Origin: Candidatus Terraquivivens ruidianensis
GTDB lineage: Archaea > Thermoproteota > Nitrososphaeria_A > Caldarchaeales > Wolframiiraptoraceae
Direction: 5' to 3'
Length of the DNA: 64,000 nt
Assembly: GCA_023267885.1 (NCBI GenBank)
Contig: JALNLB010000001.1
Coordinates: 6,083 to 70,082, forward strand
Below are positions 2,788 through 55,563 of this stretch, in pieces. Positions within the stretch are counted from its first letter, which is position 1; every line of letters begins with the position of its first letter. A program made the position numbers and the translations under genes. Under the pieces are notes generated by a model. It worked only from the letters and a program-made list of their open reading frames with translations, did no database searches and had not been told where the DNA came from.

Positions 2788-3115
2788 GGTGGCGGCAGCC
2801 CCCAGTGGGTAGCGGAGGGCCCGACAGGTGCGCTTGCTGGAAGCAGGATCGGGTACGATGCTACGCAGCGGTGCCGTCGCGCCTTAGTGCTGCTCTCTCC
2901 CGAGCCTGACACAGTTCGGCGCGTAAGGGATGCCTATCCCCTCCTTACGGAGAGGCTGCGTCCCTCCGAGACCCCGCGTAGGCGCACCCTCACGCCCCCT
3001 TCCGGCATGCATTCCTGCCAAGCTCTCCACATCCCACCAGGTTATCCGGCCCTCGCGTGTAGCCCGTTTCGAGTTGAGGGGAAGGGCTAGCTCCCCAGCC
3101 CTACCTGCCGCCACC
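2788..3115 (-). ncRNA. Signal recognition particle RNA (archaeal 7S/SRP RNA), about 328 nt
   Basis: This is a GC-rich block whose ends pair (GGUGGCGGCAG...CUGCCGCCACC). Read on the minus strand it shows three SRP features. The first is an Alu-domain-like 5' part (AGGGCU-GGGGAGCU-AGCCCU hairpin). The second is UCCCCUCAACUCGAAACGG, resembling the archaeal UGUAAC/GAAAC region. The third is a helix-8-like CAGGCUC-GGGA-GAGAGCAG in the 3' half. A BRE/TATA element sits 23-34 nt upstream. Confidence 0.75.
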
Positions 3116-11598: not shown

Positions 11599-12591
11599 AT
11601 GCGTTTACGTTTTTTGATGTTGTTGCTCGTTGGCATCGCCGTATTCTTGGCTATGGCATATTACATAAGCTTTGAGGCTCTGGTTGAAACATTTACACGC
11701 CTGAGCTTAGGTCATCTGATGCTCAGCTTCGTTCTACTCTTGCTATACTTCATTTCTAGGGCATTCAGATGGAGGATGCTTTTATCCATGTTAAAGGACC
11801 CTGGCCTTACGCTTACGCTGACCGCGACGGGCATGGGATACTTTGTTAACGTAATCTTTCCTGTGAGGCTCGGGGAGATAGCAAGGGCTGTTGCCGTTTC
11901 GAAAAAGAGCAAAGTAGGGTTCATGCCAGTATTCGCAACCGTAGTCGTTGAACGTGTGTTTGACCTAGCTTATCTGTTGGTGGCACTAGGTTTGCTGGCA
12001 GCCATAATCGGCGGGCTTGTCCAAGCGGAGCCTATTAAAACACTCGTGCTTGTCTCTGGTATAGGCTTAATCGTTATCGTCGCCATATTGCTTATACTGC
12101 TCAAAAGAGGTACGTTCGCTTTAAGGCTGTTTAACGGAATGGTAGGACGTATATTACCCTCAAGCGTACAGAATAGGTTCACCAAAGCTATTGAATCTAT
12201 TGTCAGTGGCTTAGAACAGTCGACCGCATGCATAAAGAGTGTAAAATTTCACCTGTGGACTCTTATGATAACGTTATTCAATATATACTCTTTGGTGGTG
12301 CTCTTCGCATCCACGGGTTTGCAACTACCTTTACTGGCCATCATGGTAGGAAGCACGGCCGTTGCTCTATCTGCCATAATTCCAGCTCCACCGGGCAACA
12401 TCGGCACTTTTGAGTTGGTATGGGTCGGAGTGTTCACGGTCTTAGGCTTGGGTCAGGCGCAAGCGATATCGTCCGGCATAGTCGTTCACGTTGTCCAGAC
12501 GACCTATCTTCTTGTGATAGGTGGAATAGCTACGTTGTTTTTGGGCGGCGTTAGAGAATACATACGAAGAAAGGATGAGGAGAAAGATTAA
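11599..12591 (+). CDS. UPF0104 / LPG-synthase-TM-like (flippase-like) membrane protein
   Basis: 330 aa polytopic protein. The SRAFRWRMLL motif after TM2 is typical of the family. A TATA-like CCTTTATATTTG lies about 28 nt upstream of the ATG. Confidence 0.6.
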   Translation: MRLRFLMLLLVGIAVFLAMAYYISFEALVETFTRLSLGHLMLSFVLLLLYFISRAFRWRMLLSMLKDPGLTLTLTATGMGYFVNVIFPVRLGEIARAVAVSKKSKVGFMPVFATVVVERVFDLAYLLVALGLLAAIIGGLVQAEPIKTLVLVSGIGLIVIVAILLILLKRGTFALRLFNGMVGRILPSSVQNRFTKAIESIVSGLEQSTACIKSVKFHLWTLMITLFNIYSLVVLFASTGLQLPLLAIMVGSTAVALSAIIPAPPGNIGTFELVWVGVFTVLGLGQAQAISSGIVVHVVQTTYLLVIGGIATLFLGGVREYIRRKDEEKD

Positions 12592-46911: not shown

Positions 46912-47088
46912 TCAGAAGTCCTCTTTTATCAACGTCTTGCGACCGTTGGCCTGACACCTTTCGACTGCTTTTTTGATGGCTTCTCTGACCACTTGATCGA
47001 GTCCTTCTAGAGCGTCCGATGCGAGCCTTATGCCCTCCGGCAGCAACTGCCTTACCTTCGACTCAACTATTATGAGTTCCCTAGCCAT
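46912..47088 (-). CDS. Small histone-fold-like protein (DUF1931-like), 58 aa
   Basis: Below the ORF-track size cut-off. MARELIIVESKVRQLLPEGIRLASDALEGLDQVVREAIKKAVERCQANGRKTLIKEDF resembles a single histone-fold helix-strand-helix ending in ..GRKTL.xEDF. Confidence 0.5.
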   Translation of the reverse strand: MARELIIVESKVRQLLPEGIRLASDALEGLDQVVREAIKKAVERCQANGRKTLIKEDF

Positions 47089-47196: not shown

Positions 47197-48645
47197 TTAA
47201 ATGACGATTTCTTGAGATGTTGCTGGCTCTATAACTTTAGATTTTATACCATGCCTCTCAAGTAACTTTCGAAACATTTCAGGGTATTCTGTGTGCACGG
47301 GGATTATTGTCCTCGGCGAAATCTTCTCAATCGTGCTGATTACCTCTCCCTGCGACGCATGACCCGAAGCATGAGCATATACGGGCCGCATGTTAAAAAG
47401 CTCCAACCAGTTGATTACCCTCTCCCTCTCTATCTCCTGCTCCTCGTTATGAGGCTCGCTAGATGAGAATAAGAATATCGAACCTGGCTCCGGTTTGATG
47501 GAGATAAGTTCTGGCAAGTCCTCAGTCTGACATAATGTGAAGATGTACTTGCCCATTTGCTTAGCCAAGCTTTCTGGCGTTATAAGTCGTACGCCGATAT
47601 CCTGACACTCGCATAAGAACTTCCTTAACCAACCACGATAATCTTTTTTAGGCTTGTATCCACCAGAACCGCTTGGCTCCAAGTAAACCGATAGCACCTT
47701 ACTCCTAAGCTCTGGTACTTGGATGTTTGTTGCCCTTTTTGCAAGGCGGTCGACAACGTAGGCCAATTTTGGCGATAGCACCAATTCTCTGCCCATATGC
47801 TCGGCAGCAGACATTAAGCTTCTTAGCCTGTCAAAGTCAAGAGGACCTATTAGCGCAACGGCAGCCTTTCCTTGAGCATCTCTCAAAGAGCTTATCATAC
47901 TAAGCATCACGCTTTCTTCAGAATGGATTAGGGGGTCGTTTATTCTCGTCCCCTCTATTATCAGCGAGTCCACGTCTTCTCTCGACGTACGCTCTATGAA
48001 GTCCTCAGTCATCTTGCGCATAGGACCATGCAACCGAAAGTCGCCTGTATATGCAATGCGGGCTTCGTCCATTTCCAGTACGAGACCGTAAGATGATGGT
48101 GTCGAATGATCCACATGTATCGGAACCGCATTTACGTCTCCTATCTTGAGTTGCTTACCTGTCGAGAAGGTATCCATTTGTCTCTTGAATACCCTTCCGT
48201 CCCTGTAATCCTTCATTTGGACTATCTGGTCTTCTGGCTCTTTACCCATCTTGGTATCTTCTCTTGCTTCCAGCAAGATAGCTGCCGTAGCTCCGACATA
48301 GAGCTTGATGTCTGACCTAAGGAATGATGCATGCCCACAGTGGTCTAAGTGGGCATGCGTGATTATGCATGCGTCGACGAGTGGTTCGTTAGTATTCATG
48401 TGGGTTAGATTTCCGAGTAAATCCTCTCGGTATATGCCAGGTAGCTCTGGGAGTATTCCTGTCAGAGCGTACTCCTCAAGTATCCTAAACCTCTTTACCT
48501 TTATGAAACCGCCGTAAAACCTTCTCTTTCTCGTAAAGCTCGTGCCGAAGTCCAAGAAAATTTTTGTCTCTTTCGTGTTTATGAGTATCTTGTTACCACC
48601 TATCTCGCCAGCTCCACCATAAACCCTTACGCTAACCAAGCCCAT
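47197..48645 (-). CDS. Metallo-beta-lactamase / beta-CASP ribonuclease (RNase J / aCPSF2-like)
   Basis: 482 aa with HAHLDHCGH (motif 2) and HASGHASQGE (beta-CASP His motif C). Confidence 0.65.
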   Translation of the reverse strand: MGLVSVRVYGGAGEIGGNKILINTKETKIFLDFGTSFTRKRRFYGGFIKVKRFRILEEYALTGILPELPGIYREDLLGNLTHMNTNEPLVDACIITHAHLDHCGHASFLRSDIKLYVGATAAILLEAREDTKMGKEPEDQIVQMKDYRDGRVFKRQMDTFSTGKQLKIGDVNAVPIHVDHSTPSSYGLVLEMDEARIAYTGDFRLHGPMRKMTEDFIERTSREDVDSLIIEGTRINDPLIHSEESVMLSMISSLRDAQGKAAVALIGPLDFDRLRSLMSAAEHMGRELVLSPKLAYVVDRLAKRATNIQVPELRSKVLSVYLEPSGSGGYKPKKDYRGWLRKFLCECQDIGVRLITPESLAKQMGKYIFTLCQTEDLPELISIKPEPGSIFLFSSSEPHNEEQEIERERVINWLELFNMRPVYAHASGHASQGEVISTIEKISPRTIIPVHTEYPEMFRKLLERHGIKSKVIEPATSQEIVI

Positions 48646-48698: not shown

Positions 48699-48959
48699 TC
48701 ACTCACTGATCACGAGCATCGTGAGCGTGCTCCTAACTTTATCCAGTCTTCTTATCTTCCATGAAACTATCTCCTTAAGCTTGTCCATGCTATCTGCCTC
48801 GACCTTTACTATCACGTCATAAACACCGTAGACGATGAATGCTTCCTTAACGGCGTCTATCTTTCTTAGCTCGTTAACTACCTCTTCCTCAGAACCTCTC
48901 GAGCCCCTTTATTGTGCAAGGGGTATCTCGGTGTTCACTAAGACAAATGCCTTTGGCAT
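48699..48959 (-). CDS. Stand-alone RAM-domain (Lrp/AsnC ligand-binding domain) protein, interrupted by a 27-nt BHB-flanked insert containing an in-frame TAA
   Basis: Hand translation gives MPKAFVLVNTEI[PLAQ*RGSR]GSEEEVVNELRKIDAVKEAFIVYGVYDVIVKVEADSMDKLKEIVSWKIRRLDKVRSTLTMLVISE. Without the bracketed 9 codons it is a canonical 77-aa RAM protein. Confidence 0.65.
48898..48924 (-). other. Candidate bulge-helix-bulge (BHB) intron inside a protein-coding gene (27 nt)
   Basis: mRNA sense: GAAC-A-C|CGAG|AUA|CCCCUU-GCACAAUA-AAGGGG|CUCG|AGA|G-GUUC. The central helix is 4 bp (CGAG/CUCG), flanked by two 3-nt bulges. The inner helix is 6 bp with an 8-nt loop, and there is an outer helix. The canonical cleavage positions excise exactly 27 nt. 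Confidence 0.6.
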
Positions 48960-49004
48960 ATTGATTCACAGCATGATTTTTAACGTTGACGTTTATAAAC
49001 ATTT

Positions 49005-50277: not shown

Positions 50278-50578
50278 ATAATGATTCTTATTTAAGGCTT
50301 ACAATTCTGTCAGCATGCAGGAAAAATTTTTCTTTTATTTGCTGACAGAATTCGATGGCCGCACCCCATCTACCGATGACTAAGCCGATTAGTTAAGCTT
50401 GCAGGTCACCCATGGGTAGATGGGCCCCTCGACCCCTTGAACACGCTCTCGCCTACTATATTAAAGGCGTGAATTTCTGAGGATATGTCTTTAGGAACGG
50501 AGCCGGCGGTTCTTGAGACTGTACCATGTGTCGCTAAGCTGAATTTTCGTAGACTCAAAGTCCACATTTTTCCAACAC

Positions 50579-50608
50579 TATTTAAATATTTTGTAAAATA
50601 TTTAAATA
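50579..50608. promoter_or_regulatory. Perfect AT-rich inverted repeat (14+2+14 bp) overlapping the promoter of the wHTH gene
   Basis: TATTTAAATATTTT-GT-AAAATATTTAAATA ends 15 nt before the ATG at 50623. Confidence 0.4.
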
Positions 50609-50622
50609 ATATTTGATCATAA

Positions 50623-52290
50623 ATGACGTTGATGTCTACTAAAATTGGGCTCAGGGGGAAGGTCGTCGACACGCTGATTCTGGTATCTAGGGGCATGAGC
50701 TCTCCGCTTGAGGTCTCGAAGGAGCTCGGGGTGCCAGTAACAGAGGCGAAGATGCTCTTGGAGGAGGTTAGGGGGCTCGGCCTAGCCCATCTTGATGAAC
50801 ATGGGAGACATCGCATGGACGCGATCACCTCTTCCGCGATCGCGACCTTGGCAGAAAAATACCCGCTTGGAAAAATCCTCTCCGGGATAAGCCCGGTGGT
50901 ACTGGATGCCATGATAGAACCTGCGACAGTAGCGGATATCGCGAAAAGGCTTGGGGTTGAGAGGGAAACGGTCTACAGGGTCATCAGGAGATTTCCCCAA
51001 GTAATCCGGAGAAGCGAGCGCGGATACCAGCTCATAGGCGACCCAGTTTTAAGATACGTTATAATCCAGTTTGCGAAGATCGTGAGGAAGGCCAGCTTGA
51101 AATTCGAGGAGGTCGTGCGGCTGAACACACACTCGCTGGTCAGGACAGTTAAGCCGCTTAGTGCGGAAGAGGGAGAGCCGACGGCCTTCACGGCGTTTGG
51201 GGTATACGGCATAGGACTATCTGGTGGAAAAGAATACTACTATGTGGTTCCTCCGCGGAAGCTCTCACCGGAGGAGGTTTTGTTGCATGCCCTGAAGGTT
51301 TCCAAGAACGCGGACGATAGGACTAAAGCCGTGCTACTATACGCTAAGCTTCTGCTCGAAGGCAGTATAGATGAAGGTAAGCTGATAGCTCTCGCAAACA
51401 AGCTTGACCCATCCAGTGAGCTGAGGAAAACAGTCTACGATATGGATCGATATGTCAGGGGACTGTCTTTGGATAAGCCCGAACTCTTCATGCCAAGGAG
51501 AGAGCTGCTTGGATATGCTGAAACTTACGGTATTAATATTAGGCAGCTTGAGCCTGCACCCATTTCAGAGGATTTCTTCACGAGACTTGGAAGAGCGTTG
51601 GATAATCGGGTCAAGGCATACCTGTTTGGAGGAGCCGCCATGATGCTTCGAGGCTACAAGGCTGCGACGGTGGACATAGATCTAGCTGTGAGGAGTCGCG
51701 GAGATCTGGCCTACTTGGATAAAGCATTGAGGTTGATGGGCTATAAGCTGGTGGGAGACCCGAATGAAGGTTCCTTGGAAGGGGGTGTTCCAAGGGTTTA
51801 CTCGGACGGAGAGTATCCCAGAGTCGAGGTGTTTCTCGATAAGATATTCGGCAAGGTCACGGTTACAGAGTCTATGCTAAGGGTTGGAGAGATGAGGGAA
51901 TACGGGAATCTCATTCTCGTAGTAGCCTCAGACGAGGACTCCGTATTATTGAAGCTGTTAACCGGAAGACTCCGAGATCTGATGGATGCGGAACTTATAA
52001 TACGTGGAAGGGGGAGGCCGCTCAACTGGGACAGGATAGTGGAGGAAATAATCGAGCAATATGGAATCATGCGATCCTATATTGGAATAACCTTTTTCGA
52101 TGGAATACGAGACCTAATCGAGGTCAAGGGGATATTCATTCCGCGTAACGTAGTGAAGAAGTTCAGGGCACTAGCGGAGAAACAGGTAGTAGAGTATGCT
52201 GCCAAGGAAATGGAATTGAAAGACTTAGAGAAGATCTCGGAGGCCACGGGCATTCCGAAGAACAAAGTGAAGAAGCTTCTAAGCTCCTAG
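50623..52290 (+). CDS. Multi-winged-helix protein fused to a minimal nucleotidyltransferase (pol-beta-like) domain
   Basis: 555 aa. It has several HTH-like segments (SPLEVSKELGVPVTEAKMLL; TVADIAKRLGVERETVYRVIRRF). The C-terminal part has YLFGGAAMMLRGYKAATVDIDLAV, which fits the G[GS]-x(n)-DxD NTase motif. Confidence 0.5.
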   Translation: MTLMSTKIGLRGKVVDTLILVSRGMSSPLEVSKELGVPVTEAKMLLEEVRGLGLAHLDEHGRHRMDAITSSAIATLAEKYPLGKILSGISPVVLDAMIEPATVADIAKRLGVERETVYRVIRRFPQVIRRSERGYQLIGDPVLRYVIIQFAKIVRKASLKFEEVVRLNTHSLVRTVKPLSAEEGEPTAFTAFGVYGIGLSGGKEYYYVVPPRKLSPEEVLLHALKVSKNADDRTKAVLLYAKLLLEGSIDEGKLIALANKLDPSSELRKTVYDMDRYVRGLSLDKPELFMPRRELLGYAETYGINIRQLEPAPISEDFFTRLGRALDNRVKAYLFGGAAMMLRGYKAATVDIDLAVRSRGDLAYLDKALRLMGYKLVGDPNEGSLEGGVPRVYSDGEYPRVEVFLDKIFGKVTVTESMLRVGEMREYGNLILVVASDEDSVLLKLLTGRLRDLMDAELIIRGRGRPLNWDRIVEEIIEQYGIMRSYIGITFFDGIRDLIEVKGIFIPRNVVKKFRALAEKQVVEYAAKEMELKDLEKISEATGIPKNKVKKLLSS

Positions 52291-55454: not shown

Positions 55455-55563
55455 GGGCCCGTAGCTCAGCCAGGTAGGGGTTTCGCCTAAAGCGGTGGGC
55501 TCTTAAGTATGATTAAACGGAGTAACCCATAGGTCGTGGGTCCGAATCCCACCGGGCCCGCCA
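55455..55563 (+). tRNA. tRNA-Lys (anticodon CUU) with two introns (13 nt at position 22/23, 19 nt at 37/38); CCA encoded
   Basis: After removing 55478-55490 and 55506-55524 the sequence folds as GGGCCCG-UA-GCUC-AGCCAGGUA-GAGC-G-GUGGG-CUCUUAA-CCCAU-AGGUC-GUGGG-UCCGAAU-CCCAC-CGGGCCC-G-CCA. Confidence 0.85.

What the first reader, a model, noticed from the sequence alone, without database searches (positions are those of the whole stretch)
48699..48959. Candidate BHB (tRNA-type) intron inside a protein-coding gene: a 27-nt insert with in-frame TAA in a stand-alone RAM-domain gene
- **Hidden gene:** a minus-strand gene, invisible in the ORF track because both pieces are under 60 aa, reads MPKAFVLVNTEI-PLAQ*RGSR-GSEEEVVNELRKIDAVKEAFIVYGVYDVIVKVEADSMDKLKEIVSWKIRRLDKVRSTLTMLVISE.
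- **Insert folds as BHB:** the 9 aberrant codons (one is TAA) lie in a near-textbook hBHBh' motif. The central 4-bp helix is CGAG (48930-48927) / CUCG (48903-48900). It is flanked by 3-nt bulges AUA (48926-48924) and AGA (48899-48897). The inner helix is CCCCUU/AAGGGG with the 8-nt loop GCACAAUA. The outer helix is C-G plus GAAC/GUUC with one bulged A.
- **Cleavage rule tested in this window:** I applied the cut-after-the-2nd-bulge-nucleotide rule. That same rule correctly delimits both introns of tRNA-Lys at 55455.
- **Result of excision:** cutting there removes exactly 27 nt (48898-48924), keeps the frame, deletes the stop and yields ..NTEIGSEEEV... This is the consensus junction of 75-80 aa RAM-domain proteins.
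- **Significance:** to my knowledge, BHB introns in archaeal mRNAs are established essentially only for cbf5 in some Crenarchaeota. A second, regulatory-protein target with a stop-containing mini-intron would be new. It also suggests splicing-dependent expression.
Basis: partly seen in the sequence, partly recalled or inferred. Interest (0 to 1): 0.9.

Follow-up and report, generated by a model that had tools for sequence, protein, structure and literature searches.

The report
tRNA-type introns inside an archaeal protein gene
A small archaeal regulator gene is interrupted by a 27-base insert that has the shape cut by the tRNA-splicing enzyme, and relatives show it must be removed from the RNA, making this only the second protein-gene family known to carry such introns.

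Summary

- **The gene:** a minus-strand gene (48959-48699) encodes a 77-aa stand-alone RAM (Lrp/AsnC ligand-binding) protein. This works only if 27 nt (48924-48898), which carry an in-frame TAA, are removed.
- **The fold:** the insert forms a bulge-helix-bulge (BHB). The standard cleavage rule restores the invariant N-T-E-I-G junction.
- **Chance:** BHB-like shapes are common in this window. The evidence is their exact position plus comparative data.
- **Relatives:** every relative of this Nitrososphaeria lineage, in at least 15 independent assemblies, has an insert at the same codon boundary. It is 27 or 25 nt long, so the 25-nt form shifts the frame if left in.
- **Covariation:** the first central-helix pair is C-G, U-A or G-C. 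Its exon base is a silent codon position, and the intron partner changes with it.
- **Selection:** both exons are under strong purifying selection (dN/dS 0-0.03; dS up to 1.8).
- **Second clade:** a probable Bathyarchaeia clade has a 20-nt intron at the same site and a second 29-nt BHB intron in the same gene.
- **Literature:** the papers available here report coding-region BHB introns only for crenarchaeal cbf5.

Caveats: the outer helix is short and irregular, and splicing itself has not been observed.

The parts
48992..48999 (-). Putative archaeal TATA box (TTTATAAA), centred about 36 nt upstream of the ATG and just after the stop of the upstream ThiF/MoeB gene
   Evidence: Read from the sequence. 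The motif and its spacing are conserved in relatives of the same clade. Its function is inferred, not tested.
48925..48959 (-). Exon 1: ATG plus 11 2/3 codons (MPKAFVLVNTE-I). Its last 7 nt supply the 5' strand of the central helix (CGAG) and the first two bulge nucleotides (AU).
   Evidence: Across 10 distinct relatives, the variable sites in exon 1 fall 2/0/8 by codon position, with only one variable amino-acid column.
48898..48924 (-). 27-nt BHB intron: A-CCCCUU-GCACAAUA-AAGGGG-CUCG-AG, with an in-frame UAA
   Evidence: Homologous inserts of 27, 25 and 20 nt lie at the same codon boundary in relatives.
48699..48897 (-). Exon 2: last base of the Ile12 codon, then GSEEEVVNELRK...TMLVISE and the stop codon
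   Evidence: dN/dS 0-0.03 against relatives. It is collinear with PDB 2ZBC.
48892..48936 (-). Whole BHB motif. Outer helix 48936-48933 plus 48931 paired with 48895-48892 plus 48896 (bulged A at 48932). Central helix 48930-48927 / 48903-48900. Bulges 48926-48924 and 48899-48897. Inner helix 48923-48918 / 48909-48904. Loop 48917-48910.
   Evidence: It is the MFE and centroid fold. Pair counts are on alignment A4. RNAalifold recovers the central and inner helices.
55455..55563 (+). Context: tRNA-Lys(CUU) with two BHB introns (55478-55490 in the D-arm and 55506-55524 at position 37/38). This shows that the organism uses BHB splicing, including at a non-canonical site.
   Evidence: Rfam tRNA hit. 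The spliced sequence folds as tRNA-Lys(CUU) in ARAGORN.

Best explanation
The gene at 48959-48699 (minus strand) encodes a 77-aa stand-alone RAM-domain (Lrp/AsnC ligand-binding) protein. A 27-nt bulge-helix-bulge intron interrupts it after codon 12.

Proposed mechanism:
1. In the primary transcript, the end of exon 1 (CGAG-AU) pairs with the 3' part of the intron (CUCG). This gives a 4-bp helix flanked by two 3-nt bulges and closed by a 6-bp inner stem-loop.
2. The archaeal tRNA-splicing endonuclease cuts after the second nucleotide of each bulge.
3. An RtcB-type ligase joins the exons. The intron is released, probably as a circle.
4. The spliced mRNA reads ...N-T-E-I-G-S-E-E-E....
5. Unspliced mRNA yields only a 16-aa peptide.

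What is shown: the structure, its conservation and covariation, the exactness of the predicted junction, purifying selection on both exons, and use of BHB splicing by the same genome for a tRNA.

What is inferred: that EndA and RtcB carry out the excision, that the intron circularises, and any regulatory role.
For: 1. **Exact junction.** The BHB cut rule removes 48924-48898 and restores the N-T-E-I-G junction found in intron-less homologues: N9, E11, I12 and G13 are invariant and Thr10 is Ala in some. It gives a full-length PF01037 match and a gapless alignment over residues 1-75 of PDB 2ZBC. The chance of a BHB of this quality on one given pair of sites is about 3e-6.
2. **Universal in the lineage.** Every relative examined carries an insert at the same boundary: L016, L084, L088, L092, L095 and L106-L119. 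These come from NCBI MAGs, JGI, ENA and Logan assemblies. Their ThiF neighbour is 64-100% identical. Insert lengths are 27 or 25 nt, so the 25-nt forms would shift the frame if not removed.
3. **Covariation.** The first central pair is CG in 4, UA in 4 and GC in 1 of 9 distinct sequences. Its 5' base is the silent third position of Thr10 (ACC/ACU/ACG). An inner-helix pair switches between CG and GC. The central and inner helices are paired in 100% of cells, while the loops vary in sequence and length.
4. **Selection.** Against L016 there are 29 synonymous and 1 non-synonymous differences. Over 10 distinct CDS the variable sites fall 11/4/57 by codon position (exon 1: 2/0/8), with dN/dS 0-0.033 at dS 0.46-1.8.
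5. **A second clade.** L096, L101 and L104 are nearest to Bathyarchaeia MAGs. They have a 20-nt BHB insert at the same site and a 29-nt BHB insert between W-K and I-R-R-L-D. The same cut rule restores an 80-aa RAM protein.
6. **The host uses BHB splicing.** The tRNA-Lys in this window has two BHB introns. The broad-specificity (alpha-beta)2 endonuclease is reported for Thaumarchaeota, Aigarchaeota and Crenarchaeota (PMC5829648, PMC3082918).
Against: - There is no RNA-level evidence. None of the nine predicted spliced proteins occurs among about 15 billion public proteins, so no assembled cDNA is on record.
- The endonuclease and ligase genes of this organism were not seen. They are not identifiable in the data I could reach.
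- The outer helix is short and irregular, with two conserved pairs and a 1-nt bulge; the distal part is not conserved.
- In the Bathyarchaeia-like intron 1, the textbook register lies about 6 kcal/mol above a competing fold.
- BHB-like shapes are not enriched in the window.
- The 5' half of the motif is coding sequence, which is conserved anyway. This limits how much covariation can be observed.
Confidence: 0.88

Rival explanations
1. Translational recoding: ribosomes bypass (hop over) the 20-29-nt gap, as in phage T4 gene 60, so the insert is skipped during translation and not removed from the RNA.
For: A stable stem-loop follows the last exon-1 codon, and an in-frame stop lies 2-5 codons into the insert in the window's clade. 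Purifying selection on both exons fits any mechanism that joins them.
Against: - Bypassing needs matching take-off and landing codons. Here the take-off codon is AUA, while the triplet before exon 2 is AGA or AAA. At intron 2 the take-off is AAG against AAU or AAA (sequences).
- The features kept by covariation are exactly the EndA signature: a 4-bp helix between two 3-nt bulges. They are not a take-off hairpin.
- Gap length varies from 20 to 29 nt.
- The same genome demonstrably uses BHB splicing.
- To my knowledge, bypassing has not been described in archaea.
Confidence: 0.03
2. The insert is removed from the RNA by a mechanism other than the tRNA-splicing endonuclease, such as an unknown ribozyme or another nuclease and ligase pair. 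The BHB resemblance would then be partly coincidental.
For: The outer helix is irregular. One variant prefers a competing fold. No enzyme data are available.
Against: - Three separate insert types (27/25 nt, 20 nt and 29 nt) at two sites all place the required junction exactly after the second nucleotide of each 3-nt bulge.
- Inserts of 20-29 nt are far too small for group I or group II introns.
- Relaxed motifs are typical of the known cbf5 pre-mRNA introns and are cut by hetero-tetrameric EndA (PMC2738675).
Confidence: 0.04
3. The locus is a pseudogene or an assembly or sequencing artefact, and the BHB is a chance fold.
For: Public annotations call no gene, or only 29-60-aa fragments. BHB-like folds are frequent by chance.
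Against: - The NCBI and Logan assemblies have the identical sequence.
- The insert is present in at least 15 independent assemblies.
- dN/dS is 0-0.03 over dS up to 1.8, and all spliced ORFs are intact.
- The helices show compensatory changes.
- The TATA box is conserved.
Confidence: 0.01
4. The BHB is cleaved but the exons are not ligated. The motif would be a processing or decay site that shuts the mRNA off, and no full-length RAM protein is made.
For: EndA also acts in non-splicing RNA processing, for example rRNA maturation and the HVO_1309 5' UTR (PMC7714728).
Against: - Exon 1 is under codon-level selection in frame (2/0/8), and exon 2 has no start codon of its own in the window. Selection therefore acts on the joined product.
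- The joined product is a complete RAM domain.
Confidence: 0.02

Closest known systems
cbf5 pre-mRNA BHB intron of Crenarchaeota (Desulfurococcales and Sulfolobales; Watanabe 2002, Yoshinari 2006, Yokobori 2009 = PMC2738675)
   Same: Both are short BHB introns inside a protein-coding sequence, often with a relaxed cleavage motif. In both, part of the motif is made of exon sequence. Both occur in lineages with the hetero-tetrameric (alpha-beta)2 endonuclease. Both are overlooked or mis-annotated by gene callers, and both show gain or loss among relatives.
   Different: The host gene differs: a 77-80-aa RAM-domain protein here, an RNA pseudouridine synthase there. The lineages differ: Nitrososphaeria and probable Bathyarchaeia here, Thermoprotei there. 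One clade here has two introns in a single ORF of about 240 nt. Exon 1 is only 12 codons. cbf5 splicing has been shown experimentally; this case has not.
BHB intron in the 5' UTR of Haloferax volcanii HVO_1309 (PMC7714728)
   Same: It is a BHB motif in an mRNA that is processed by the splicing endonuclease, and its removal appears to matter for expression.
   Different: It lies in the untranslated leader of a euryarchaeon and does not interrupt the reading frame.
Non-canonical tRNA introns of TACK archaea, including tRNA-Lys(CUU) in this window
   Same: The structural signal and cut rule are the same, the size range is similar (13-19 nt in the tRNA, 20-29 nt here), and the same enzymes are presumed.
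   Different: The substrate here is an mRNA with no tRNA body. Excision restores a reading frame, not an RNA fold.
IRE1-dependent unconventional splicing of HAC1/XBP1 mRNA in eukaryotes (works-like analogy only; my own knowledge, mentioned in PMC13149111)
   Same: A protein endonuclease recognises small stem-loop structures in an mRNA. It removes a very short intron (26 nt in XBP1) whose removal changes the frame or stop. An RtcB-type ligase rejoins the exons.
   Different: The nuclease (IRE1) and the recognition motif are unrelated, and the process is regulated by ER stress in eukaryotes. There is no evidence here that splicing is regulated.
Stand-alone RAM-domain proteins (PF01037 only; for example PDB 2ZBC, 2CVI, 2E1A)
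   Same: The spliced product is collinear with 2ZBC over residues 1-75 (E 9e-24) and matches the full PF01037 profile.
   Different: The known members are encoded by uninterrupted genes.

Membership tests
Archaeal bulge-helix-bulge (BHB) intron | Two 3-nt bulges on opposite strands, separated by a 4-bp helix | tested here: met
   Window: CGAG/CUCG with bulges AUA and AGA. The same architecture is found in all 9 distinct intron-1 variants and in both intron-2 variants. The central helix is paired in 100% of cells. In the Bathyarchaeia-like intron 1, a competing register (3-bp helix, 4-nt bulge) is thermodynamically preferred.
Archaeal bulge-helix-bulge (BHB) intron | Flanking helices: an inner helix h' and an outer helix h that close the two bulges (strict hBHBh' form) | tested here: inconclusive
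   The inner helix of 4-6 bp is always present. For the outer helix, only C8-G43 and C/U6-G44 are conserved, with a 1-nt bulge between them. The distal GAAC/GUUC is paired in the window but not conserved (82% of cells). RNAalifold predicts no outer helix. This is a relaxed motif, as described for cbf5 (PMC2738675).
Archaeal bulge-helix-bulge (BHB) intron | Cleavage after the second nucleotide of each bulge yields the functional mature RNA | tested here: met
   The rule restores N-T-E-I-G and a complete RAM domain. The same rule holds for the 25-, 20- and 29-nt inserts and for both introns of the tRNA-Lys in this window.
Archaeal bulge-helix-bulge (BHB) intron | The structure is maintained in evolution by compensatory changes | tested here: met
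   Pair 9-39 is CG:4, UA:4, GC:1 and pair 17-34 is CG:7, GC:2. No shuffle out of 500 reaches the observed covariation score, and slid controls drop to 50% paired or less. Only two pairs covary, because most of the 5' strand is constrained by coding.
Archaeal bulge-helix-bulge (BHB) intron | The host encodes the splicing endonuclease (EndA) and an RtcB-type ligase | not testable with these tools
   Only the 64-kb window and short related loci were available, and I did not identify either gene. There is indirect support. The window holds a tRNA with two BHB introns, one at a non-canonical site. (alpha-beta)2 EndA is reported for Thaumarchaeota and Aigarchaeota (PMC5829648, PMC3082918).
Archaeal bulge-helix-bulge (BHB) intron | Excision and exon ligation are observed in RNA (spliced junction, linear or circular intron) | not testable with these tools
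   No transcriptome was accessible. None of the 9 predicted spliced proteins exists in the collection of 15 billion proteins.
Stand-alone RAM-domain protein (Lrp/AsnC ligand-binding domain only, PF01037) | A full-length PF01037 domain with no DNA-binding HTH domain, about 75-85 aa | tested here: met
   The spliced product matches PF01037 over 1-73 of 73 positions, E 1e-15. It is collinear with the 83-aa PDB 2ZBC. NCBIfam hits cover only the C-terminal ligand-binding part of the AsnC, LysM and Lrp models, all below cut-off.
Programmed translational bypassing (T4 gene 60 type) | Matching take-off and landing codons flank the skipped gap | tested here: not met
   The take-off codon is AUA and the pre-landing triplet is AGA or AAA. 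At intron 2 they are AAG against AAU or AAA (sequences).
Pseudogene | Relaxed selection and accumulating lesions in relatives | tested here: not met
   dN/dS is 0-0.033 with dS up to 1.8. All 14 distinct gene sequences give intact spliced ORFs.

The most novel reading that the evidence does not exclude
BHB introns in protein genes may not be a cbf5 curiosity. They may be a recurrent feature of TACK archaea that gene callers systematically miss. In that reading, the site-1 intron of this RAM gene is either ancient, predating the split of Nitrososphaeria and Bathyarchaeia, or has been gained repeatedly at a preferred exon sequence. Its stop-containing mini-intron, 36 nt from the start codon, would act as a gate: an amino-acid-sensing regulator is made only when the tRNA-splicing machinery (EndA and RtcB) has spare capacity.
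Probability: 0.15. Interest if true: 0.9.

Novelty: new member of a known kind. Interest (0 to 1): 0.78.

Why it matters
- **A rare class gains a member.** For more than twenty years cbf5 in some Crenarchaeota has been the only protein-coding gene known to carry a tRNA-type (BHB) intron. PMC7714728 says so explicitly, and papers from 2018 and 2025 still cite only the cbf5 work.
- **What is new here.** This is a second, unrelated host gene, in two other archaeal classes. The introns are only 20-29 nt, and one lineage has two of them in an ORF of about 240 nt. Endonuclease-dependent mRNA splicing in archaea is therefore broader than assumed.
- **A blind spot in annotation.** The true 77-80-aa product is absent from about 15 billion public protein sequences, because gene callers emit nothing or truncated fragments.
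- **A discovery recipe.** Degenerate-codon patterns that allow a short gap at a conserved junction could be applied to other gene families.
- **A test system.** The locus is compact and tractable for asking how an mRNA is spliced when transcription and translation are coupled, and whether such splicing is regulated.

Tried and rejected
1. **BHB enrichment.** I tested whether the BHB shape itself is significant. It is not: 466 loose hits, and 11 strict hits against 14.4 in shuffles. I did not use the shape alone as evidence.
2. **ORF-rescue scan.** I scanned the window for other genes that BHB excision would repair. It gave 861 candidates and is uninformative without homology, so I abandoned it.
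3. **Strict hit at 50593-50610.** It lies upstream of the TrmB-like gene and is part of an AT-rich perfect palindrome. It is not an intron.
4. **False positives in the metagenome scan.** Fifteen of the 23 pattern hits ('23-nt inserts') were intact genes in which the 3' half of the pattern matched again out of frame. I discarded them.
5. **ARAGORN.** It misses the two-intron tRNA-Lys and, with intron search on, miscalls it as Asn. Rfam plus manual excision resolved it.
6. **Exact look-up of nine spliced proteins.** I hoped to find spliced cDNA or intron-less alleles, and found nothing.
7. **Translational bypassing.** Considered and rejected, because there are no matching take-off and landing codons.
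8. **Pseudogene or assembly error.** Rejected.
9. **Similarity to the tRNA-Lys introns.** By eye, the intron shows no resemblance to them, so there is no evidence for intron transposition.
10. **Not attempted.** I built no phylogeny of the 77-aa protein, which has too little signal. Whether the two intron-bearing clades share an ancestral intron remains open.

Full report
**Observation.** On the minus strand, an ATG at 48959 opens MPKAFVLVNTEI. It runs into PLAQ-stop, and then, with no start codon of its own, continues as GSEEEVVNELRK...TMLVISE-stop at 48699. My own BHB scanner returns exactly 48924->48898, 27 nt. RNAfold gives the proposed structure as MFE and centroid, with z about -2.1 to -2.5. 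Removing the 27 nt gives a 77-aa protein that matches the Lrp/AsnC ligand-binding (RAM) profile PF01037 over positions 1-73 of 73 (E 1e-15). The unspliced reading loses the first strand. The window comes from MAG GCA_038850335.1. An independent Logan assembly of SRR27730040 is identical at this locus, and neither annotation calls the gene.

**Is it more than chance?** The shape alone is not. A loose BHB definition gives 466 hits in the window. At the quality seen here there are 11 hits, against a mean of 14.4 in dinucleotide shuffles. What is improbable is position: the fraction of cut-site pairs that satisfy the motif is about 3e-6. Here the cut sites fall exactly where protein homology requires them. 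Intron-less homologues read N-T-E-I-G straight across the site; N9, E11, I12 and G13 are invariant, and Thr10 is Ala in some. The spliced product aligns without a gap to residues 1-75 of the solved 83-aa stand-alone RAM protein 2ZBC (E 9e-24).

**Relatives of the window's own lineage.**
- Among 80 species-representative genomes carrying a homologue, 79 have an uninterrupted gene. One, L016 (an uncultured Nitrososphaeria MAG), matches only exon 2, at 98%. It has a 25-nt insert at the same codon boundary.
- A metagenome scan used a degenerate-codon pattern that does not presuppose the intron sequence. It found more carriers: L084, L088, L092 and L095.
- I then used the adjacent ThiF/MoeB gene as an anchor (100% down to 64% identity). 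Every relative fetched from NCBI, JGI, ENA and Logan (L106-L119) has the insert. Their annotations show either no gene or a truncated 29-60-aa AsnC fragment.
- Inserts are 27 nt (window, L106, L107) or 25 nt (all others). The 25-nt forms would shift the frame if they were not removed.

**Covariation.**
- In an alignment of the nine distinct variants, the central helix and the first four inner-helix pairs are paired in 100% of cells.
- The first central pair is C-G in 4, U-A in 4 and G-C in 1. Its 5' base is the silent third position of the Thr10 codon (ACC, ACU, ACG), and the intron base changes to match.
- An inner pair switches between C-G and G-C. No shuffle out of 500 reaches the observed covariation score, and slid controls fall to 50% paired or less.
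- RNAalifold independently recovers these two helices. Loops vary freely in sequence and in length, from 3 to 10 nt.
Only two pairs next to the 3' bulge hold, with a 1-nt bulge between them. The motif is therefore relaxed, not textbook.

**Selection on the exons.**
- Window against L016: 29 synonymous and 1 non-synonymous difference, dN/dS 0.005, dS 1.08.
- Over 10 distinct spliced CDS, the variable sites by codon position are 11/4/57. In the 12-codon exon 1 they are 2/0/8. dN/dS is 0-0.033 at dS 0.46-1.8.
- Every unspliced reading stops after 14-25 residues.
- Both exons are therefore translated, in frames that join only if the insert is removed. This excludes a pseudogene.

**A second clade and a second intron.** Three GC-richer metagenome contigs (L096, L101, L104) have intron-less Bathyarchaeia MAGs as their nearest named relatives, at up to 90% protein identity. 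They sit in a different gene neighbourhood.
- They carry a 20-nt insert at the same I12|G13 boundary. The inner helix has a different sequence (CGCC/GGCG).
- They also carry a 29-nt insert between W-K and I-R-R-L-D. Its central helix is UGGA/UCCA, its bulges are AGU and AUA or AAA, its inner helix is GGAC/GUCC, and it has an 8-bp distal outer helix.
- The same cut rule at both sites yields an intact 80-aa RAM protein that keeps the invariant residues W58, R61, R62, L63 and D64 at the second junction (W-K-I-R-R-L-D).
- For this clade's intron 1, RNAfold prefers a competing register (3-bp helix, 4-nt 3' bulge) by about 6 kcal/mol. That register places the cuts at the same nucleotides.
- The two intron-bearing clades are only about 72% identical to each other. 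Each has closer intron-less relatives, at 82-90%. Either the site-1 intron is old and was often lost, or it was gained more than once. I could not decide between these.

**Host context.**
- The window contains a tRNA-Lys(CUU) at 55455-55563 with a 13-nt D-arm intron and a 19-nt intron at position 37/38. Both are delimited by the same rule. The organism therefore uses BHB splicing at non-canonical sites.
- The literature assigns the broad-specificity (alpha-beta)2 endonuclease to Thaumarchaeota, Aigarchaeota and Crenarchaeota (PMC5829648, PMC3082918). It also links relaxed pre-mRNA motifs to that enzyme (PMC2738675).
- I did not see the endA or rtcB genes of this organism.

**Mechanism.**
- Shown: the structure, its conservation, the exact junction and the selection on the joined product.
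- Inferred: EndA cuts after the second nucleotide of each bulge, an RtcB-type ligase joins the exons, and the intron is released.
- Speculative: a gating role. The unspliced mRNA gives only a 16-aa peptide, and the 5' strand of the motif lies in codons 10-12, so a translating ribosome would compete with BHB formation.
- A conserved TTTATAAA centred about 36 nt upstream of the ATG suggests the gene has its own promoter.

**Rivals.**
- Translational bypassing lacks matching take-off and landing codons.
- Pseudogene and artefact are excluded.
- Cleavage without ligation conflicts with codon-level selection on exon 1 and with the absence of a start codon for exon 2.
- A different RNA-level excision mechanism cannot be formally excluded without enzyme data. 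It is unparsimonious, because three insert types at two sites all obey the EndA rule.

**Novelty.**
- In the searchable literature, coding-region BHB introns are reported only for crenarchaeal cbf5. A 5'-UTR intron in Haloferax HVO_1309 is the only other mRNA case (PMC7714728). The 2018 and 2025 papers still cite only the cbf5 work.
- Earlier predictions in other genes were never confirmed and concern Sulfolobus and its viruses (PMC2738675).
- Searches combining Lrp, Bathyarchaeota or Aigarchaeota with BHB introns found nothing relevant.
- None of the nine predicted spliced proteins exists among about 15 billion public sequences. The intron therefore appears fixed in these lineages, no assembled cDNA is on record, and the real gene product is missing from the databases.

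**Verdict.** This is a genuine new member of a very small known class. The comparative genomics support is strong, and RNA-level proof is still missing.

Noticed in passing
window 55455-55563 (+): tRNA-Lys(CUU) with two introns: 13 nt in the D-arm (55478-55490; central helix AGGU/GCCU) and 19 nt at position 37/38 (55506-55524). ARAGORN misses it in default mode and miscalls it tRNA-Asn with intron search on. Rfam detects it.
   Followed up: yes
window 50577-50612 (+): Perfect AT-rich palindrome TATTTAAATATTTT-GT-AAAATATTTAAATA, immediately upstream of the 555-aa TrmB-like ORF (50623-52290). It may be a promoter or an operator. My scanner scored it as a BHB, but it is not an intron.
   Followed up: partly
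L096 ~1890-1920, L101 ~12330-12360, L104 (second insert in the same gene): A second BHB intron of 29 nt in the RAM gene of a probable Bathyarchaeia clade, between the codons for W-K and I-R-R-L-D. That makes two introns in an ORF of about 240 nt.
   Followed up: yes
L101 12101-12343 (+); L109, L112, L114-L119 (called genes of 50-60 aa); L002, L106 (29 aa); L107 (36 aa): Gene callers mis-annotate the interrupted gene. They emit nothing, truncated AsnC fragments, or (as an ORF in L101) an 80-aa chimera that joins an out-of-frame N-terminus to exon 2. The true products are absent from about 15 billion public proteins.
   Followed up: yes
window ~46912-47088 (-); also L001, L002 and L115-L119: A conserved 58-aa ORF with no Pfam hit lies between the beta-CASP/RMMBL gene and the FBPase gene. 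It is called in several relatives.
   Followed up: no
window 47197-48645 (-) compared with L016 and L115-L119: The 482-aa metallo-beta-lactamase/RMMBL (beta-CASP-like) gene downstream of the RAM gene is present in the window and in L106-L113. It is absent in L016 and L115-L119, where the RAM gene is followed directly by the 58-aa ORF and, except in L119 where the contig ends, FBPase. This is a lineage-specific insertion or deletion.
   Followed up: no
window 2792-3111 (-): Archaeal SRP RNA (Rfam RF01857, 120 bits), complete.
   Followed up: no
L052 and L075 (genome contigs): Two contigs carrying typical archaeal RAM genes are filed under bacterial MAG names (Chloroflexia, Acidiferrales). This is probably bin contamination.
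   Followed up: no
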